The notes beneath the pieces are model-generated. The model was not told the DNA's origin and did not search any database. It saw only the letters and a list, made by a program, of their open reading frames with translations. Of a DNA stretch of 64,000 nucleotides, positions 9,792-18,319 are shown one piece after another; position 1 is the stretch's first letter; every line of letters begins with the position of its first letter. The translations under genes were made by a program, and so were the position numbers. Source of the stretch: Candidatus Levyibacteriota bacterium (GTDB lineage Bacteria; Patescibacteriota; Microgenomatia; Levybacterales; UBA12049); assembly GCA_963790825.1 (NCBI GenBank), contig CAWBPM010000004.1, positions 158,987-222,986 of the forward strand, read 5' to 3'.

Positions 9792-10019
9792 TTAAAAAGG
9801 GAATATATCAGAAGACTTTAAATCCAAGGCTTTTATAATTTTATAAAGCTTTTCAATGCTCGGATTCGCCAGTCCTTTCTCTATCTTGCCGTAATAGCTT
9901 CGATTTACTCCCGCTACTGCGGCTACGTCTACTTGCTCTAACTTTTTTTCTTTACGTGCCTTCTTTATATTTTCTCCAATTTCCTTTCTGATACCAATAG
10001 TGAAGTAATAACTAGTCAT
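9792..10019 (-). CDS. XRE-family helix-turn-helix transcriptional regulator
   Basis: IGIRKEIGENIKKARKEKKLEQVDVAAVAGVNRSYYGKIEKGLANPSIEKLYKIIKALDL is a classic Cro/C1-type HTH; start taken at the internal Met. Confidence 0.65.
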   Translation of the reverse strand: MTSYYFTIGIRKEIGENIKKARKEKKLEQVDVAAVAGVNRSYYGKIEKGLANPSIEKLYKIIKALDLKSSDIFPF

Positions 10020-10162
10020 ATAGCTATTTTCGATGAAAAAGAATTTGTTTGAGATGATATAGTGGGCAAATAACCTCAAGGCTAGCCTTGTTTTTTATAC
10101 CTAATTTAAAGTAAAATTACGATAGCTTATAGCACTATGAAAATACAAAGGAGGCGAACAAC

Positions 10163-10462: not shown

Positions 10463-10875
10463 CAGAAGTTAAAATGATTGTATTTGTTGCAATCGTTAAT
10501 ATAGTTTGATCCGAGTATAATGGTTATACTTCTTGACGTACATAGTCCTCCTGCTTCCTATTTTGCCCTTTTGGCGCATTTTATTTAGTAACAGGATGAA
10601 ATAGTAATCTTTGGCGTTTCAGTCTGGCGAAAGCTATGTTACGCAGTTTGGGTCTCCAGCAGTTATAAAACAAGTTACACAACTTGCACCAGCTACAAAT
10701 AACCTACATTTCTATTCACATGAGCTTGTGCTCGCAAAGATATGAGCCTACACAAAATGTAATTATTTTCACTAACATATATATATTTTTGAGTTCAAAA
10801 GGTAGTAGTGTAAGTTGTGCAAGCTATATAATATTGCTTATGGATAGACACACTCCTGCACAAAGAAGTTTTAAT

Positions 10876-11259
10876 ATGTCTCAGGTAAAGTCAAAGGATA
10901 CTAAACCTGAACTGTTAATGTTTGCATTACTTGAGGAATCTGGAATTAAGTTTGAAAAACATTATTCTGTTCCTGGCAAACCTGATATAGCGTTTCCCGA
11001 ATATAGAGTAGCGGTTTTTATTGATGGGGAATTTTGGCATGGTAAGGATTTTAAGCAAATTAAAGATACATTACAGCCCTTTTGGGTTAAAAAAATAGGT
11101 GATAACATAAAAAGAGACAGAAGAACAATGGATAAGCTGAGAGTTGAAGGGTGGCATATTTTGCATTTTTGGGATAAACAAGTTATTCGGAATCCTCGAA
11201 AATCGCTCAAACGTATTAGGCAATTTCTTGAGCGTGTACAAATTTCTGGTGGAAAGTAG
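10876..11259 (+). CDS. vsr: very-short-patch repair endonuclease Vsr
   Basis: SKDTKPE, VPGKPDIAFP, FIDGEFWHG, KIGDNIKRDRR, GWHILHFWD motifs. The six-frame ORF starts at 10684, but the Vsr domain begins at MSQVKSKDTKPE. Confidence 0.8.
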   Translation: MSQVKSKDTKPELLMFALLEESGIKFEKHYSVPGKPDIAFPEYRVAVFIDGEFWHGKDFKQIKDTLQPFWVKKIGDNIKRDRRTMDKLRVEGWHILHFWDKQVIRNPRKSLKRIRQFLERVQISGGK

Positions 11260-12346
11260 GAAGCAATTTTTCTGTTGTTTCCAGCTCACGCATTGAGTAC
11301 AAGAGTGCTTCAGCGGCTCTTTTAGCAAGTAACGGAGGTACAGCATTTCCGATCTGTTTGGCAATTTCTCCGAAGTTGCCTATGAACTTAAAAGAATCAG
11401 GAAATGTTTGGAGTCGGGCGGCTTCTCTTAAAGAAATTGCTCTGTCTTGTTCAGGATGCCCAAATCTTCCTTTTGAAATCATTCCGCAACCGCCTGTCAT
11501 TGTTGGTGAAGGATAATCCCATCTCATTCTTCCGTAAACATCTTTGTGTCCCTTAGTTGTTTTATGACACTCCAGGACTAATTCGTCTGGCCATGATGTT
11601 CTATCTCCGCCGTCGTGTGGTGTATAGATGATTCTTTTAAGATTGATTTCCGCCAGACTTGCTGAGACCTGCATTGGATCATTCTCATGTTTTTCGCCTG
11701 CCTTTATTGGAGGCAGGTCTTTAATTGCTTCTCGTACAGTAGCCCACGCGGGTAAGTTATCCGAAACTGAAGGGTCAGCATTAGTTTTCGGGGGGAATGA
11801 GAGTCTGATACTCGGATTGTTTGTACCCATAAGAACCAATCTTTTTCTTCTTTGGGGAACGCCATAATCAGCGGTATTTACTACATCGTAAATCGTTTGG
11901 TAACCGAGCTCACTAAGTCTCTGTAAAATCTGCACAAATAGAGGCTTTCCGATTCCTTTAGCAAGCCCTGGAACATTTTCTAATACAAAAGCGAGCGGCT
12001 TTATTTCCTCAACTATACGCAAAAATTCGTATATAAGTTTGTTTCGCGGATCAGTAAGTCGTTGAGAATTTCTTCTTGCAGTGGAAAACCCCTGACAAGG
12101 AGGACATGCAATAAGAACTACTTCTTTACCGTTTTTGAAACCTCCAGCTTTCAGAAGTTCTGTGCCTGATAGATAGGAAATGTCAGACGGAAATACTGTA
12201 CAACCTGGAAAGTTTACCTTGAATGATTCCGAGGCATTGCTATCAATATCAACGGCAACTTTAATGGAGTAGCCTGCCTGTTCGAATCCCAACGCTGAGC
12301 CTCCACAGCCTGAAAAAAGGTCAATTACGCCCATATTCCCTTTCAT
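11216..12346 (-). CDS. dcm: DNA (cytosine-5)-methyltransferase
   Basis: Motif I DLFSGCGG, motif IV PCQGFS, motif VI ENVPGL, C-terminal QIGNAVPP; 3' end convergent and overlapping with vsr. Confidence 0.85.
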   Translation of the reverse strand: MKGNMGVIDLFSGCGGSALGFEQAGYSIKVAVDIDSNASESFKVNFPGCTVFPSDISYLSGTELLKAGGFKNGKEVVLIACPPCQGFSTARRNSQRLTDPRNKLIYEFLRIVEEIKPLAFVLENVPGLAKGIGKPLFVQILQRLSELGYQTIYDVVNTADYGVPQRRKRLVLMGTNNPSIRLSFPPKTNADPSVSDNLPAWATVREAIKDLPPIKAGEKHENDPMQVSASLAEINLKRIIYTPHDGGDRTSWPDELVLECHKTTKGHKDVYGRMRWDYPSPTMTGGCGMISKGRFGHPEQDRAISLREAARLQTFPDSFKFIGNFGEIAKQIGNAVPPLLAKRAAEALLYSMRELETTEKLLPTFHQKFVHAQEIA

Positions 12347-12436: not shown

Positions 12437-12465
12437 TTGACTATATCTTAAAAATGTAGTATGAT
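12437..12465 (+). promoter_or_regulatory. sigma-70-type promoter candidate for the 12496-18319 operon
   Basis: TTGACT - 17 nt - TATGAT located ~30 nt upstream of the first ORF. Confidence 0.4.
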
Positions 12466-12495: not shown

Positions 12496-12723
12496 ATGAA
12501 AACCAAAGAAACAAAAAGTGCGTCTTTCAAAAGGCTTGCAGGAAACAGAACAAATAATGCAATCAGGAATATAAGACTCCTCGGTAATCTATCCAATAAG
12601 CATAACTATGCCTATACTGAGGAAGACTTCAAGCATATCTTCAGTAGTGTTGAGGAGGAACTGAAACTCGCAAAATCAAAATTTTTTGTATCGTTAAGTA
12701 AGAAGAAAAAATTTAAGCTCTAA
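12496..12723 (+). CDS. small basic hypothetical protein (75 aa), first gene of operon
   Basis: Lys/Arg-rich ORF directly after the promoter candidate. Confidence 0.4.
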   Translation: MKTKETKSASFKRLAGNRTNNAIRNIRLLGNLSNKHNYAYTEEDFKHIFSSVEEELKLAKSKFFVSLSKKKKFKL

Positions 12724-12764: not shown

Positions 12765-13412
12765 ATGAATAAAAATATTACATCACTCAAACTAACCCGT
12801 TCGCAGAAGATTCTTATTTCGCTTTACCAAAGAGCCAACGGTACGAATAAGCAAATCAGGTTTGAGGACATTGCTGTTGCCGCTTTCAGGAATTTTCCCG
12901 CTGATTTTCAATTGAAAGGTTACCCGCAATATCCCGATACTGGAGACATTATCCATAAACCTTTATATAGCGAACTGAAAAAAGGCGGCTATGTATTGTC
13001 TGGAAATAAGTATTTTTCTCTTACTCCGAAAGGAGTAACCTATGCTAAAAAGTTACTCAGGGTCTCAGAGAAAGAACCTGTATCTGGTAAAGCGTCTTCA
13101 TTTATAAAACTAACAGCCGACCAACAAAAAGAACTTGATAGATTGAGAACTTCCCCAGCGGTTGAAATGTTCCTCAAGGGTAAAGAAACCGAAATTCTCG
13201 ATATAGATTTCTATTCTTATCTTGGTGTAACCGTAAGAACTAATAAAAATACTTTTTTGGGAAGATTATCAACAGTTGAAGATGCAATAAATGCAACTCA
13301 AGGAAAAAGCGATGAATTGTATACCAAATTAAGAGAGTGCCATAAATTTCTGCTTGCTAAATTTAATGAAAACATTGAATTTGTAAAACAAAGTAAAGGA
13401 GGAAACAGGTGA
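12765..13412 (+). CDS. hypothetical protein (215 aa)
   Basis: ORF overlapping the next gene by 4 nt (ATGA), indicating coupling; no recognised motif. Confidence 0.5.
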   Translation: MNKNITSLKLTRSQKILISLYQRANGTNKQIRFEDIAVAAFRNFPADFQLKGYPQYPDTGDIIHKPLYSELKKGGYVLSGNKYFSLTPKGVTYAKKLLRVSEKEPVSGKASSFIKLTADQQKELDRLRTSPAVEMFLKGKETEILDIDFYSYLGVTVRTNKNTFLGRLSTVEDAINATQGKSDELYTKLRECHKFLLAKFNENIEFVKQSKGGNR

Positions 13413-15256
13413 GTAATACTCAGCTTACAATTAAAGAAGAACCAAATGTCTTCGACGACAACATTCTGGATATCTGGGGAAATGCTTTCAACTTCAGTCA
13501 TGAAAAGGGACTTGCCGAATGGCTTAAAAACTCTGTAGATGCCTATCGTCGAGCGGGAGCACCAGATAAAGACCAGCATATTGTATTCCGCTTTACTGAT
13601 GGGAAAGATTCTTCAAATCCTCCAACAATAGAGTGTATTGATTTTGTGGGAATGGAATATTTGGATATTGAAAAAGCTCTTAAAAGATGGGGAGATCCAA
13701 ATGCGGCAAAAAGAGGGCAAAAGATAAAAGTATTTGGAGGCCATGGTAATGGGGGTAAGTTCTATATGCGTCAGATGTTCCAGCAATCATATTATTTTAC
13801 CTACAAGCAGGGTAAGCTTAATGTTTTCGGGTTTAATAAAGATAGAAAATACGGCTTTTCTCCTGATTACAAAGATAAAAAAGTTTCCTTGGAGGAGGCG
13901 TTTAAAGTTGCGGGCATAGACCGATCCATCATCCCTAATGCAATAATACGTCAACTTGAACATGGCGAGACGGGGTTTACGGTGGTCAAGGGTATAAGAC
14001 CAAAGAATTTAGTCGGCAACAAGCTCCCCGTTTATAGAATTTGTGACAAACTCAAGTATCATCCTCAGGCAAGAAGCCCTCTAAAGTTCAGCAATGTATC
14101 TGTTATTCATAATGATAAAATCTTGGTTAACAGCTTAAGAGTTGAAGCGATAGAACCACTTGAAGGATTCGAGGGTCCTTTCCTTTTTGATATTCCAGAT
14201 TTTCTTGATGCTATAGAAGGGGACAAGAAGATCAGCATGTCAAATAAAAAATATGGGAAAGGTAGTCTTGTACTTAAAACTTCTTCACTTCCATTCGGTC
14301 GCGGTGGAAGAAAGGCGGAGTTAAATTGTATTGATATAGCAGGAGAAATCGGAATAATAGCCTCTTACAGCATGGAACAGGTTGGATTTTTACAATACTT
14401 TCCTCAAGCTCAATACATCTATGGGGAATGCAGTTGTCCTATATTAGAAGATCCCGAATATGATTCTGTTCAGAATGATAGAGAAAAACTTGTTGAGAAT
14501 GAGAGAACTCAAGCATTACTACAGTGGATTGCAAGAAGAATAGATGAAGTAGCTGGAAAAATAGCGGATAAAGAAGCAAAAAAAGAAGAAGAAAACAGCA
14601 TGAAAGCATCGGATGAATTCAATAAAATTCTCAATAAGTGGAAAAATCAATTCATGTCGAAGTTGTTTGCAGAACTCTTTGGTGGATCAGGTAAGGGCGA
14701 CTCCACAGGTGGACTTGGAGACGATGGTTCTGGGGGCGGGGAAAATAAGGAATCCAAAACCAAGGGCGGTTTAGGTTCAGGATCTGGAAAAGGAGGGGGA
14801 GATGGAGAGGAGAAAAAGAAAGGCTCTGCCTTCCCAATGGTTCTGTTATCCGAGAGAGACAGAGACCCTGACTATCCAGACATCCCAGTCACTTTTTCAG
14901 AAAGACATCCAGCGGTGCAACAGCGACCCCAGGACGTTAGCAGAGGTATTTATTGGATAAACATGTCAAAACCAATGGCTAAAAAAATAAGCGAGAAATA
15001 TGGAGAAGACTCAATAGAGATGAGAAATTATATTTTTGAAAGATATGTAGACATTTTTACAAAAGAAACTATATGGAGAGAAGCTAAGAAACAAGGCGGA
15101 ACTCTCACACCAGAGCAAATTGACGACAGAATTACATATGTTGCTTCGCTTGTGTATGATACGGCAATGGTTGATTTAGAAGAAGCCCTTCTTGACAGAA
15201 AATATACTTCAAAAAAAGGTGACGAAGTACATAGTGAAAATGAACCAAAACAATAA
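13409..15256 (+). CDS. GHKL-superfamily (histidine-kinase/MORC/HSP90-like) ATPase with Gly-rich linker and C-terminal extension
   Basis: N-box EWLKNSVDA, G1 IDFVGM, G2 VFGGHGNGGKFY; low-complexity GGSGKGDSTGGLGDDGSGGGENK...GSGSGKGGGDGEE linker. Confidence 0.65.
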   Translation: MSNTQLTIKEEPNVFDDNILDIWGNAFNFSHEKGLAEWLKNSVDAYRRAGAPDKDQHIVFRFTDGKDSSNPPTIECIDFVGMEYLDIEKALKRWGDPNAAKRGQKIKVFGGHGNGGKFYMRQMFQQSYYFTYKQGKLNVFGFNKDRKYGFSPDYKDKKVSLEEAFKVAGIDRSIIPNAIIRQLEHGETGFTVVKGIRPKNLVGNKLPVYRICDKLKYHPQARSPLKFSNVSVIHNDKILVNSLRVEAIEPLEGFEGPFLFDIPDFLDAIEGDKKISMSNKKYGKGSLVLKTSSLPFGRGGRKAELNCIDIAGEIGIIASYSMEQVGFLQYFPQAQYIYGECSCPILEDPEYDSVQNDREKLVENERTQALLQWIARRIDEVAGKIADKEAKKEEENSMKASDEFNKILNKWKNQFMSKLFAELFGGSGKGDSTGGLGDDGSGGGENKESKTKGGLGSGSGKGGGDGEEKKKGSAFPMVLLSERDRDPDYPDIPVTFSERHPAVQQRPQDVSRGIYWINMSKPMAKKISEKYGEDSIEMRNYIFERYVDIFTKETIWREAKKQGGTLTPEQIDDRITYVASLVYDTAMVDLEEALLDRKYTSKKGDEVHSENEPKQ

Positions 15257-16691
15257 TGACCAATCAATCCATTCTCATCAGTTGCAAATGAACACTACAG
15301 TTCAGGGCAATTCTGGATTTGCTAACTTTATATCTTCCGAAGATATACAGCTTCCTCAAACTTTAACTCGTGATGACTCAATTGAAGTGCTTGGATTACC
15401 AGTCAAACTTGAAAATGCTCTGAAACTTAATGGAAACATTGCAACAGTAGGAGAGTTTTGTGATACATCAAAAGATAAACTAGGGAAAATTTGGACAATC
15501 GGACCGAAGTCAATAAAGTATATGCTCCAAGTACAATTTTTGATAAATGAGAAATTTGGAATCCTGAACAACAAAACAATAGATAAAGTTGTGCATGAAG
15601 AACCACCTCAATTAGTAAAGATAACTGAAAACGAACTCCTTACCTCTTTACTTAACAGATCAGGTAACAAAAGAACAATAGAAATTGTTTCCAAACGGTA
15701 TGGCTTAATGAATGGCGAGAAGCAGACCCTTGAAGAAATCGGAGATAGTTACGGAGTAACAAGAGAAAGAATACGACAAGTCCAGAAAAAAGCATTAAAC
15801 AGAATGAAACATCCGATGAGCTCAATAAAGGAACAATTAGTAGAACTAATCGAGGAAGTTATTTTTAGAAACGGTGGCATACTTTCAGCTGAGGAAGCGG
15901 ATTTAGAAATTCCTAAAGCTCTCGGCGGAATAAATGATGATGGGAGTTCAATTCTTGATTTACTTTGTGACTTAGATTGGATTCAGAACTACAGAATAGG
16001 AGACATTGTAATATATGCTCCTAAATTTGGCGGTATTTCTCTCTCTAAATTATCAGAAAGAATTATTTCGCTTGTTAAATCTGAAAATCTAGGTCTTGAT
16101 GTAGAATCTATAATAAGAAGAAATGGTTTATTTATTAAGATTAAAGACGAGCGATTTGACCCTCACGTTTTTGTACTCAGATATTGTCGTATTGACCCAC
16201 GTATTGAAGAAATCAACTTAACATCCAATCGAACGGAAACTCTTTTCAGGTACTATACATCTTCGGGGCACTTCGCCAAAAAAGGTTGGGTCGTTCTTAT
16301 GTCCAGAATACTGGAAGAAGTACAGACGCCTTTACACTATACGGAGATTGCCAATAAAGTTAATGACTTAATGGGAAACTCGGAAAACCAACTGGATGCA
16401 AGAAGGGCTCATTCGATTCTTATCGAAGACGAGGCTTTTGCTCATAGTGGCATACATGGAACATACGGTCTTACATCATGGGGTTTGCGAAAAGAAACTA
16501 CCCCAGAACTGATCGAAGAATGTCTCCGTAAAGCGGGATTTCCACTTCATTGGAAACAAATATACAACTATGTCAGTAAATATAAAGATTCTAAGCCTGG
16601 TAGCATTACCAGTGTTCTTGAAACCAATAGAATGTTTAAGAAAGTTGACAGCGGAATATATTGGTTGACAGAGAATAAAAATTCACATTAA
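15240..16691 (+). CDS. multi-HTH DNA-binding protein: alpha-CTD-like HhH + sigma-70 region-4 HTH + two HARE-HTH-like domains
   Basis: IEVLGLPVKLENALKLNGNIATVGEF...IGPKSIKYM (RNAP alpha-CTD pattern). [35 protein letters not shown] (sigma-70 region 4, nearly the same motif as the rpoD end at 200-320). PLHYTEIANKV...GTYGLTSW and PLHWKQIYNYV...GIYWLTE (HARE-HTH pattern). Start at MNQNN overlaps the upstream gene by 17 nt. Confidence 0.6.
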   Translation: MNQNNNDQSIHSHQLQMNTTVQGNSGFANFISSEDIQLPQTLTRDDSIEVLGLPVKLENALKLNGNIATVGEFCDTSKDKLGKIWTIGPKSIKYMLQVQFLINEKFGILNNKTIDKVVHEEPPQLVKITENELLTSLLNRSGNKRTIEIVSKRYGLMNGEKQTLEEIGDSYGVTRERIRQVQKKALNRMKHPMSSIKEQLVELIEEVIFRNGGILSAEEADLEIPKALGGINDDGSSILDLLCDLDWIQNYRIGDIVIYAPKFGGISLSKLSERIISLVKSENLGLDVESIIRRNGLFIKIKDERFDPHVFVLRYCRIDPRIEEINLTSNRTETLFRYYTSSGHFAKKGWVVLMSRILEEVQTPLHYTEIANKVNDLMGNSENQLDARRAHSILIEDEAFAHSGIHGTYGLTSWGLRKETTPELIEECLRKAGFPLHWKQIYNYVSKYKDSKPGSITSVLETNRMFKKVDSGIYWLTENKNSH

Positions 16692-16696
16692 AGACA

Positions 16697-18319
16697 GTGA
16701 GAGTAAAGAGCGAAAGCTTTACGCTTACTGGTTCAACTTATATAAATAATAGTATGAGAATAAAGAAAATACATCTAAAAAATTTCAAAAGATTTGATAA
16801 TCTAACAATAGATTTAGGTAATGACCCTAAAAAAATCATAGCTCTTGTTGGTCCAAATGGTTGTGGCAAAAGCTCCGTATTTGATGCTTTTGAAGAAAAA
16901 TTAAAAGATTATAAGGGGGCTAATGTCACTGAGCTTGCCTCTTTCTTTTCTAAATTATGGCACTCCAACGATCCTGCTCTCAAATCAGAAACTTATAATA
17001 AAGGAGAATCAATAAAAATACATAGAGAAGATGATAGTGAGAATTTTGATAAAAAAAGCTTTACTATTAGATCTGCATATAGGTTTACGCCTAAATTATC
17101 TGTTGATAGCGTTAGAACAAAACCTAGTATTATTGAAAATAAAGAAAGACCAGGTAGTAGTATTGCTATAGATTCTCAGTTGAGTGATAACTACGAAAGA
17201 TTACTGGGTAAACTAATCAATGAATTTTTTAATGGTACAAAAACAGGACAAGAAACTCGTGAAGAAATTCTAGGGAAGATTAACGCTATTTTAGAGAATA
17301 TATTGGATATAAAAATATCTAATTTAGGGGATGTTACCGCTGGTAAAGGGCAGCTATACTTTCTGAAAGAAAGCTCTAAGGATTTTCCATTTGAGAATTT
17401 GTCTTCTGGGGAGAAAGAAGTCGTGGATATCATTGTTGACTTGATTATTAAATCTTCAGACTATAACAACACTGTTTATTGCATAGATGAACCAGAGTTA
17501 CACCTAAATACTGCAATACAACGAAAACTACTTATTGAAGTCGAAAAACTTATACCCGACAACTGTCAATTATGGGTTGCTACTCATAGCATAGGTTTCT
17601 TAAGAGCCCTTCAAACTGACTTGAGGGATAAAACACAAGTTTTGGATTTCTCCGAGAAAGATTATTTTAACGGGGCAAAAACAATCATTCCAATCAATCA
17701 AACACGAAGAAATTGGCAACGTATCTTTAAAACTGCCCTAGAAGACTTAACTGGACTTATTGCACCCGAAAAAATTATTTATTGTGAAGGCAGAGCCGAT
17801 CCAACTTCTCAGGGAAACGAACAAGGATTAGATGCAACAGTTTATAATGAAATTTTTGAAGAAACTAACCCAGAAACATTATTTATATCAGCTGGTGGAG
17901 GGATACCACATATAAACCATTCTGCTATTGCTCTCCAAATTCTGTCAAAAGCATTCCAAGGAGTAGAGCTCTTTTTATTAAAAGATAAAGATGAAAAAAC
18001 CGATGCTGAGAGAACTACATTTATTAGCTCTACACCAGAAAATAAGATGTTAACAAGGCGAGAAATAGAGAACTATTTATTTGATATTGAAATTTTGAAA
18101 AACTACAGTAGTAAGAATGGTAGAACACTAGATGAGCAAAAATACTCGCAGATTGTTATAGATATTAAACAACAAGATTTGAAGCTAGGTCAAATACTAC
18201 AGAGCTTACAGCATTTGTGTGGAGCAAGTGGAAGTATAAGTGATTTCAAAATTGAACTTGCGAAATATATTATTCCTGAAACTTCAGTCTATTCCGAACT
18301 GAAGGGATGTATTTTTTAG
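16697..18319 (+). CDS. OLD-family / PARIS-like ABC-ATPase fused to a short Toprim (DUF4435-like) nuclease domain
   Basis: Walker A GPNGCGKSS, Walker B VYCIDEPELHL, H-loop WVATHS. C-terminal IIYCEGRADP (Toprim Glu) and LLKDKDE (DxD), ending REIENYLFD. Confidence 0.6.
   Translation: MRVKSESFTLTGSTYINNSMRIKKIHLKNFKRFDNLTIDLGNDPKKIIALVGPNGCGKSSVFDAFEEKLKDYKGANVTELASFFSKLWHSNDPALKSETYNKGESIKIHREDDSENFDKKSFTIRSAYRFTPKLSVDSVRTKPSIIENKERPGSSIAIDSQLSDNYERLLGKLINEFFNGTKTGQETREEILGKINAILENILDIKISNLGDVTAGKGQLYFLKESSKDFPFENLSSGEKEVVDIIVDLIIKSSDYNNTVYCIDEPELHLNTAIQRKLLIEVEKLIPDNCQLWVATHSIGFLRALQTDLRDKTQVLDFSEKDYFNGAKTIIPINQTRRNWQRIFKTALEDLTGLIAPEKIIYCEGRADPTSQGNEQGLDATVYNEIFEETNPETLFISAGGGIPHINHSAIALQILSKAFQGVELFLLKDKDEKTDAERTTFISSTPENKMLTRREIENYLFDIEILKNYSSKNGRTLDEQKYSQIVIDIKQQDLKLGQILQSLQHLCGASGSISDFKIELAKYIIPETSVYSELKGCIF

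What the first reader, a model, noticed from the sequence alone, without database searches (positions are those of the whole stretch)
15240..16691. Single protein assembled from three RNA-polymerase-derived DNA-binding modules (alpha-CTD HhH, sigma region 4, delta-like HARE-HTH x2)
The N-terminal segment IEVLGLPVKLENALKLNGNIATVGEF..GPKSIKYM follows the RNAP alpha C-terminal-domain pattern. The middle [30 protein letters not shown] is nearly the same motif as the bona fide rpoD region 4 at the start of this window. The C-terminus carries two PLHY/PLHW...G.YGL.SW / GIYWLTE units like the HARE-HTH of the RNAP delta subunit. Such a combination suggests a factor that docks on promoter DNA or on RNAP itself: a decoy, a sensor of phage takeover of transcription, or a targeting subunit for the neighbouring ATPases.
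Basis: partly seen in the sequence, partly recalled or inferred. Interest (0 to 1): 0.75.

Follow-up and report, generated by a model that had tools for sequence, protein, structure and literature searches.

The report
DNA-reader subunit of a methylase-linked MORC system
This 483-residue protein really is a string of six DNA-binding-type modules (RNA-polymerase alpha-CTD, sigma region 4, two plain winged helices and two HARE-type winged helices), and it is the fast-evolving last gene of a conserved, unnamed cassette that pairs a cytosine methylase with a MORC-like ATPase, most likely a mobile defence system with no recognisable nuclease.

Summary
ORF 15240-16691(+) encodes a 483-aa protein with an RNAP alpha-CTD helix-hairpin-helix domain (Pfam above threshold), a sigma-70 region 4 (E 2e-12, about 40-47% identical to solved sigma-A region 4) and two duplicated HARE-type winged helices. 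The protein is not a sigma factor, alpha subunit, delta subunit, MzaA or PglW.

The target is always the least conserved member, yet the DNA-contact residues of its alpha-CTD and sigma-4 modules are nearly invariant.

Best reading: it is the DNA-recognition, modification-reading subunit that directs a MORC-like clamp to unmethylated foreign DNA. No nuclease was found.

This is a new variant of the paraMORC-type restriction-modification theme. The mechanism is inferred, not shown.

The parts
9792..10079 (-). XRE-type HTH, the likely controller (C-protein-like) of the methylase/restriction cassette
   Evidence: tblastn with the HTH_3 genes that precede Vsr in L002, L003 and L097 hits here (E 1e-9 to 1e-10). 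Those genes carry Pfam HTH_3/HTH_31.
10684..11259 (+). Vsr very-short-patch-repair endonuclease. The true start is probably downstream of the TTG, because the match begins at aa 52.
   Evidence: NCBIfam TIGR00632 vsr, E 2.7e-36. Present in most related loci. Not found in L088, either as a called gene or by tblastn.
11216..12346 (-). Dcm-type C5 cytosine DNA methyltransferase, transcribed divergently from the operon
   Evidence: Pfam DNA_methylase, E 8.8e-68. PADLOC MTase_II, 1.6e-99. PDB hits to DNMT1, M.HaeIII and M.HhaI. Present in every related locus.
12437..12465 (+). Best sigma-70-like promoter match (TTGACT-17-TATGAT) upstream of the operon
   Evidence: This is a consensus match only.
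12496..12723 (+). p75, a small conserved protein of unknown fold and the first gene of the operon
   Evidence: 53-82% identical copies sit at the same position in L002, L003, L086, L088 and L094. A 46% identical 75-aa gene precedes a distant GHKL homologue on an Ensifer plasmid. No family hit.
12765..13412 (+). p215, a conserved protein of unknown function. A winged-helix N-terminus is suspected from sequence only.
   Evidence: 133 homologues, none with a Pfam domain. Always precedes the GHKL gene. No PDB profile hit. A distant 229-aa homologue lies in the Ensifer trio.
13409..15256 (+). MORC-like GHKL+S5 ATPase followed by a long helix (aa 365-423), a disordered Gly-rich linker (aa 426-473) and a helical C-terminal domain
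15240..16691 (+). The finding: a 483-aa six-module protein, start overlapping the GHKL stop by 17 nt
15357..15557 (+). alpha-CTD-like helix-hairpin-helix module (aa 40-106)
   Evidence: Pfam RNA_pol_A_CTD above cut-off. Equivalents of the E. coli alpha DNA-contact residues are conserved across the family: R/K at 56, N59 in 52/55, G88 in 55/55, K/R90, S/T91.
15627..15815 (+). Sigma-70 region 4 module (aa 130-192)
   Evidence: T174, R175, E176, R177, R179 and Q180 are invariant or nearly so in 55 sequences.
15822..16025 (+). Winged helix A (aa 195-262), acidic
   Evidence: AF2 secondary structure H-H-H-E-E. pI 4.1, family mean 4.6. No Pfam hit.
16032..16259 (+). Winged helix B (aa 265-340), the most variable module
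   Evidence: Mean pairwise identity 0.29.
16272..16481 (+). HARE-type winged helix 1 (aa 345-414)
16494..16673 (+). HARE-type winged helix 2 (aa 419-478), a duplicate of unit 1
   Evidence: hhalign 96.6%, E 6e-10.
16697..18319 (+). ABC/OLD-like ATPase (PARIS AriAB-like by PADLOC). Adjacent here and probably co-transcribed, but not a conserved member of the cassette.
   Evidence: Absent or replaced in other loci, and the downstream genes are mutually unrelated.

Best explanation
The protein is the DNA-recognition (reader/targeting) subunit of a mobile, restriction-modification-like defence cassette. The cassette consists of a Dcm cytosine methylase (usually with Vsr and an XRE-type controller), p75, p215, a MORC-like GHKL ATPase and this protein.

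Proposed mechanism:
- The alpha-CTD and sigma-4 modules bind duplex DNA in the way they do at promoters: minor-groove A/T-rich contacts for alpha-CTD, and a -35-like hexamer for sigma-4.
- The tandem HARE winged helices read whether nearby cytosines carry the cassette's own 5-methyl mark.
- The acidic winged helix A and the variable winged helix B contact the partner proteins.
The dimer uses ATP to clamp or loop the DNA.
- The final harmful step is either cleavage by a nuclease not yet recognised in the cassette, or a physical block.

Shown here: the domain composition, the conserved gene partnership, the MORC-like fold of the partner, and conservation of the DNA-contact residues.

Inferred: DNA binding itself, methylation reading, physical interaction with the ATPase, and a defensive outcome.
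For: (1) Conserved partnership. The order Dcm(-)|p75|p215|GHKL|target recurs in all nine distinct relatives' neighbourhoods examined: L002, L003, L086, L088, L094, L096, L097, the P0034 locus and the window. In a distant locus (L090; GHKL 48% and Dcm 42% identical) the genes are rearranged, yet a 2x-alpha-CTD + sigma-4 + 2x-HARE protein still sits beside p212, GHKL and Dcm.

(2) The genes overlap (p215/GHKL by 4 nt, GHKL/target by 17 nt). One promoter-like site lies upstream, and no terminator-like site occurs before 18709.

(3) The partner is a MORC-like GHKL+S5 ATPase with intact ATP-binding motifs. Prokaryotic MORC/paraMORC genes were already shown by gene context to belong to R-M systems with Dcm and Vsr (PMC2292703).

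(4) The target is always the least conserved cassette member. In L086 the identities are Dcm 79, p215 73, GHKL 70 and target 55%. In L094 they are 58, 64, 57 and 37%. This fits a specificity or sensor subunit.

(5) Conserved DNA-contact positions. By my knowledge of E. coli alpha and sigma-70, the positions that contact DNA are nearly invariant. Sigma-4 R175, E176, R177, R179 and Q180 are 55/55. In the alpha-CTD, N59 is 52/55, G88 is 55/55 and position 56 is R/K in 54/55.

(6) Relatives vary by adding DNA-binding repeats: 1-4 alpha-CTD copies, or GyrA-CTD blades.

(7) HARE-HTH is proposed, and in one case shown, to read modified DNA. The ASXL1 HARE-HTH binds 6mA DNA (PMC6591016). HARE-REase fusions occur in Dnd systems (PMC10853773).

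(8) The alpha-CTD + sigma-4 dyad is homologous to the central region of the BREX type-2 protein PglW. The target scores E 3.7e-7 and its relative P0405 scores 8.9e-26. That region was described as alpha-CTD-like plus winged helices with a sensing/DNA-binding role (PMC12839542).

(9) Defence-island and mobile-element context. Serine recombinases, a relaxase and T4SS genes lie nearby, and GmrSD_N, HEPN/Ymh, OLD-like, HicAB and SMODS genes are neighbours.
Against: - No nuclease was recognised in the conserved genes, so 'restriction' is unproven.
- No DNA-binding, methyl-reading or protein-interaction experiment exists.
- HARE-HTH assignment for this particular protein is below Pfam's threshold.
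- Winged helix A is acidic, and HARE unit 1 is near neutral, so not all modules need bind DNA.
- A p75+GHKL+p215-like trio exists on an Ensifer plasmid without any such reader.
- Related short sigma-4+HARE proteins of Patescibacteria lie in housekeeping context.
Confidence: 0.55

Rival explanations
1. RNA-polymerase-directed factor. The sigma-4 and alpha-CTD modules are used to dock on RNAP (for example sigma-4 on the beta-flap) or to occupy UP/-35 promoter elements in place of the holoenzyme. The protein would then act as a decoy or transcription blocker, or sense phage takeover of transcription.
For: Sigma-4 is about 40-47% identical to primary sigma region 4 and keeps every -35-contact residue. 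The alpha-CTD keeps its DNA-contact residues. The HARE fold is also the N-terminal domain of RNAP delta. MzaA, a sigma-70-family protein, is part of the mzaABCDE defence system (NCBIfam NF041931; PMC9523054).
Against: Sigma regions 2/3 and the alpha NTD, which hold these subunits in RNAP, are absent. The conserved partner is a DNA-clamping-type ATPase and a DNA methylase, not a transcription component. Relatives multiply alpha-CTD copies or add GyrA-CTD blades, which fits DNA binding rather than RNAP docking. The top Foldseek hits are sigma-4/beta-flap-tip chimeras aligned over 79-85 columns, against about 60 for sigma-4 alone. This hints that the helix after sigma-4 fills the flap-binding groove. 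That is only a hint, because I could not inspect coordinates.
Confidence: 0.15
2. Nuclease-free silencing. The reader loads the MORC-like ATPase onto unmethylated incoming DNA, preferentially at promoter-like sites. ATP-driven clamping or compaction then blocks transcription and replication without cutting, analogous to eukaryotic MORC silencing.
For: No nuclease domain was detectable in any conserved gene. The best structural matches of the ATPase are MORC3, SMCHD1 and MORC2. The promoter-recognition residues of sigma-4 and alpha-CTD are conserved. C. elegans MORC-1 is reported to entrap and condense DNA topologically, as stated in the abstract of PMC8277788.
Against: Absence of a detected nuclease is weak evidence. 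p75, p215 and the ATPase C-terminal domain are unassigned and were not all modelled. An XRE-type controller and Vsr fit a classical toxic restriction activity.
Confidence: 0.15
3. Transcriptional regulator of the cassette or of the mobile element that carries it. The multi-HTH protein would control methylase, operon or ICE genes and would not take part in defence.
For: The protein is made only of HTH-type modules, including a promoter-binding sigma-4. The cassette lies beside recombinases and, in relatives, conjugation genes. A related short sigma-4+HARE family in Patescibacteria sits in housekeeping context after secDF.
Against: A separate small XRE regulator already occupies the controller position. 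The gene is translationally coupled to the ATPase gene and travels with it through a rearrangement. Six modules and rapid divergence are unusual for a simple operon repressor.
Confidence: 0.1

Closest known systems
paraMORC/MORC-containing restriction-modification operons (Iyer, Abhiman & Aravind 2008, PMC2292703)
   Same: A GHKL+S5 ATPase encoded next to a C5 cytosine methylase and Vsr on laterally mobile islands.
   Different: The described systems pair the ATPase with superfamily-II helicases or recognisable nucleases (REase, HNH, TIR). None is found here. This ATPase is missed by Pfam HATPase_c_3 and by all PADLOC models. An alpha-CTD/sigma-4/HARE partner is not mentioned in the text I could read (0 occurrences of 'sigma').
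PglW of BREX type 2 (central alpha-CTD-like domain plus winged helices)
   Same: Sequence-level homology of the alpha-CTD + sigma-4-like dyad to PglW profile positions about 784-989: E 3.7e-7 for the target and 8.9e-26 for relative P0405. PglW follows the same pattern of an HhH domain followed by several winged helices in a methylase-linked defence system (PMC12839542).
   Different: PglW is a 1400-1600-aa enzyme with NERD nuclease, kinase and inactive STAND domains. The target has none of these and is a stand-alone protein partnered with a GHKL ATPase.
MzaA of the mzaABCDE system (sigma-70-family protein with a MutL-like GHKL partner)
   Same: A sigma-region-4-bearing protein encoded with a MutL/MORC-type GHKL ATPase in a defence locus.
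RNAP delta subunit (RpoE) and HARE-HTH restriction-enzyme fusions
   Same: HARE-type winged helix with the 'PLH(F/Y)..I...........G.YGL..W' signature. HARE is fused to REases in modification-linked systems.
   Different: The target has no acidic C-terminal tail like delta and no fused nuclease. Here HARE is tandemly duplicated and joined to alpha-CTD and sigma-4.
'Sigma factor-like helix-turn-helix DNA-binding protein' family of Patescibacteria (~350 aa; e.g. P0082, P0094)
   Same: About 25-28% identity over about 70% of the target: sigma-4 + winged helices + HARE.
   Different: This family lacks the alpha-CTD. The one locus examined is housekeeping (after secDF) with no methylase or GHKL gene.

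Membership tests
Sigma-70 family sigma factor | Region 2 (core binding, -10 recognition) together with region 4 | tested here: not met
   Only Sigma70_r4 is found. There is no Sigma70_r2 or r3 hit at E<=0.1. NCBIfam sigma models score 35-55 bits against cut-offs of 240-780.
RNAP alpha subunit | N-terminal dimerisation/assembly domain plus CTD | tested here: not met
   Only RNA_pol_A_CTD is matched (aa 44-93). There is no alpha NTD hit.
RNAP delta subunit (RpoE) | HARE-HTH N-terminal domain reaching the family score, plus an acidic C-terminal tail | tested here: not met
   TIGR04567 scores 27.9 bits against a cut-off of 42. The protein ends 5 residues after HARE unit 2, with no acidic tail.
HARE-HTH domain (PF05066) | Match to the Pfam model at the gathering score | tested here: inconclusive
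   The window protein scores 17.7-18.1 bits against 25.9. Against that, 40 of 55 homologues match at E<=0.01 (best 1.8e-7), relatives reach 1.6e-41, and unit 2 is homologous to unit 1.
MzaA (NF041931) | Full-length match at >=800 bits, with MzaB-E partners | tested here: not met
   52.2 bits, region 4 only. No Mza model matched the 215-aa, 615-aa, Dcm or ABC neighbours at E<=0.1 (p75 was not scanned).
BREX PglW (NF033442) | NERD nuclease, pseudokinase + kinase, C-terminal inactive STAND, within a BREX type-2 locus | tested here: not met
   Only profile positions 792-989 match, at 28 bits against 990. No kinase or NERD hit. No BREX genes were found among the cassette neighbours scanned.
paraMORC-type R-M system | GHKL+S5 ATPase with intact ATP-binding motifs | tested here: met
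paraMORC-type R-M system | Linked DNA methylase (mostly C5) and often Vsr | tested here: met
   Dcm and Vsr are adjacent in the window and in relatives.
paraMORC-type R-M system | Linked superfamily-II helicase and/or recognisable endonuclease | tested here: not met
Membership of one of the named paraMORC1-5 families | Family-specific motifs and C-terminal extensions defined in PMC2292703 | not testable with these tools
   No reference sequences or profiles of paraMORC1-5 were available. No Pfam model, HATPase_c_3 included, matched at E<=0.1.
Anti-phage defence system (functional class) | Protection against phage or plasmid when expressed | not testable with these tools
   Only contextual evidence is available: a mobile island and defence genes as neighbours.

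The most novel reading that the evidence does not exclude
The cassette is a nuclease-free, methylation-gated silencing machine. A reader built from the promoter-recognition parts of RNA polymerase (alpha-CTD on UP-like DNA, sigma-4 on -35-like hexamers), plus tandem HARE modification readers, loads a MORC-like ATPase clamp onto unmethylated foreign promoters and shuts them down. This would be a prokaryotic counterpart, and possibly a forerunner, of eukaryotic MORC/5mC-linked gene silencing. The wider (alpha-CTD)n-sigma-4-HARE superfamily would then be a general class of 'modified-DNA promoter readers' serving different modification systems, 5mC here and possibly 7-deazaguanine next to a DpdA-like gene in L098.
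Probability: 0.15. Interest if true: 0.85.

Novelty: new variant of a known kind. Interest (0 to 1): 0.58.

Why it matters
Three of the four operon proteins are invisible to Pfam, NCBIfam and PADLOC, yet the cassette recurs in many metagenomes. It rides on mobile elements of Patescibacteria (CPR), and a rearranged version lies on an unclassified metagenome-assembled genome; close homologues of its ATPase are labelled Acidobacteriia/Terriglobia.

If the reading is right, the cassette adds a defined reader subunit to the poorly understood bacterial MORC/paraMORC systems. It also shows that the promoter-recognition modules of RNA polymerase have been reused as a unit (alpha-CTD + sigma-4) in at least two defence contexts, this cassette and BREX PglW.

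It offers a tractable test of whether HARE-HTH domains read 5-methylcytosine. And it raises the question of how a methylase-linked system without a visible nuclease harms invaders, which bears on the origin of eukaryotic MORC-based silencing.

Tried and rejected
- The genome-contig scan with the family alignment was swamped by ordinary sigma factors, because the back-translated pattern was the region-4 motif. The apparent 'aa 37-205' matches (L010, L012, L014, L051, L075) turned out to be C-termini of normal 360-510-aa sigma factors and were discarded.
- Profile searches of the 615-aa and 215-aa proteins against PDB sequences gave only chance-level hits to low-complexity segments.
- Pfam scans of the isolated winged helices A, B and HARE unit 2 gave nothing.
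- I tested whether the gene downstream of the target is a conserved fifth component or effector slot. Nine downstream ORFs from six loci plus the window's ABC ATPase share no similarity at E<=1e-3, and several start with a hydrophobic N-terminal segment that looks membrane-spanning (by eye). The idea of a conserved effector was rejected, so the window's ABC ATPase is treated as a neighbour.
- The RR-like/HEF_HK paraMORC pair (PMC8011034) was considered as the identity of p215 and GHKL. It was rejected because neither protein matched any Pfam model at E<=0.1, so those models (PF19192, PF19191) did not hit either.
- One literature search was wasted on an ambiguous term.
- The key HARE-HTH paper (PMC3272235) is not held, so I could not check whether it already depicts this architecture.
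They hold only one distant relative of the ATPase.

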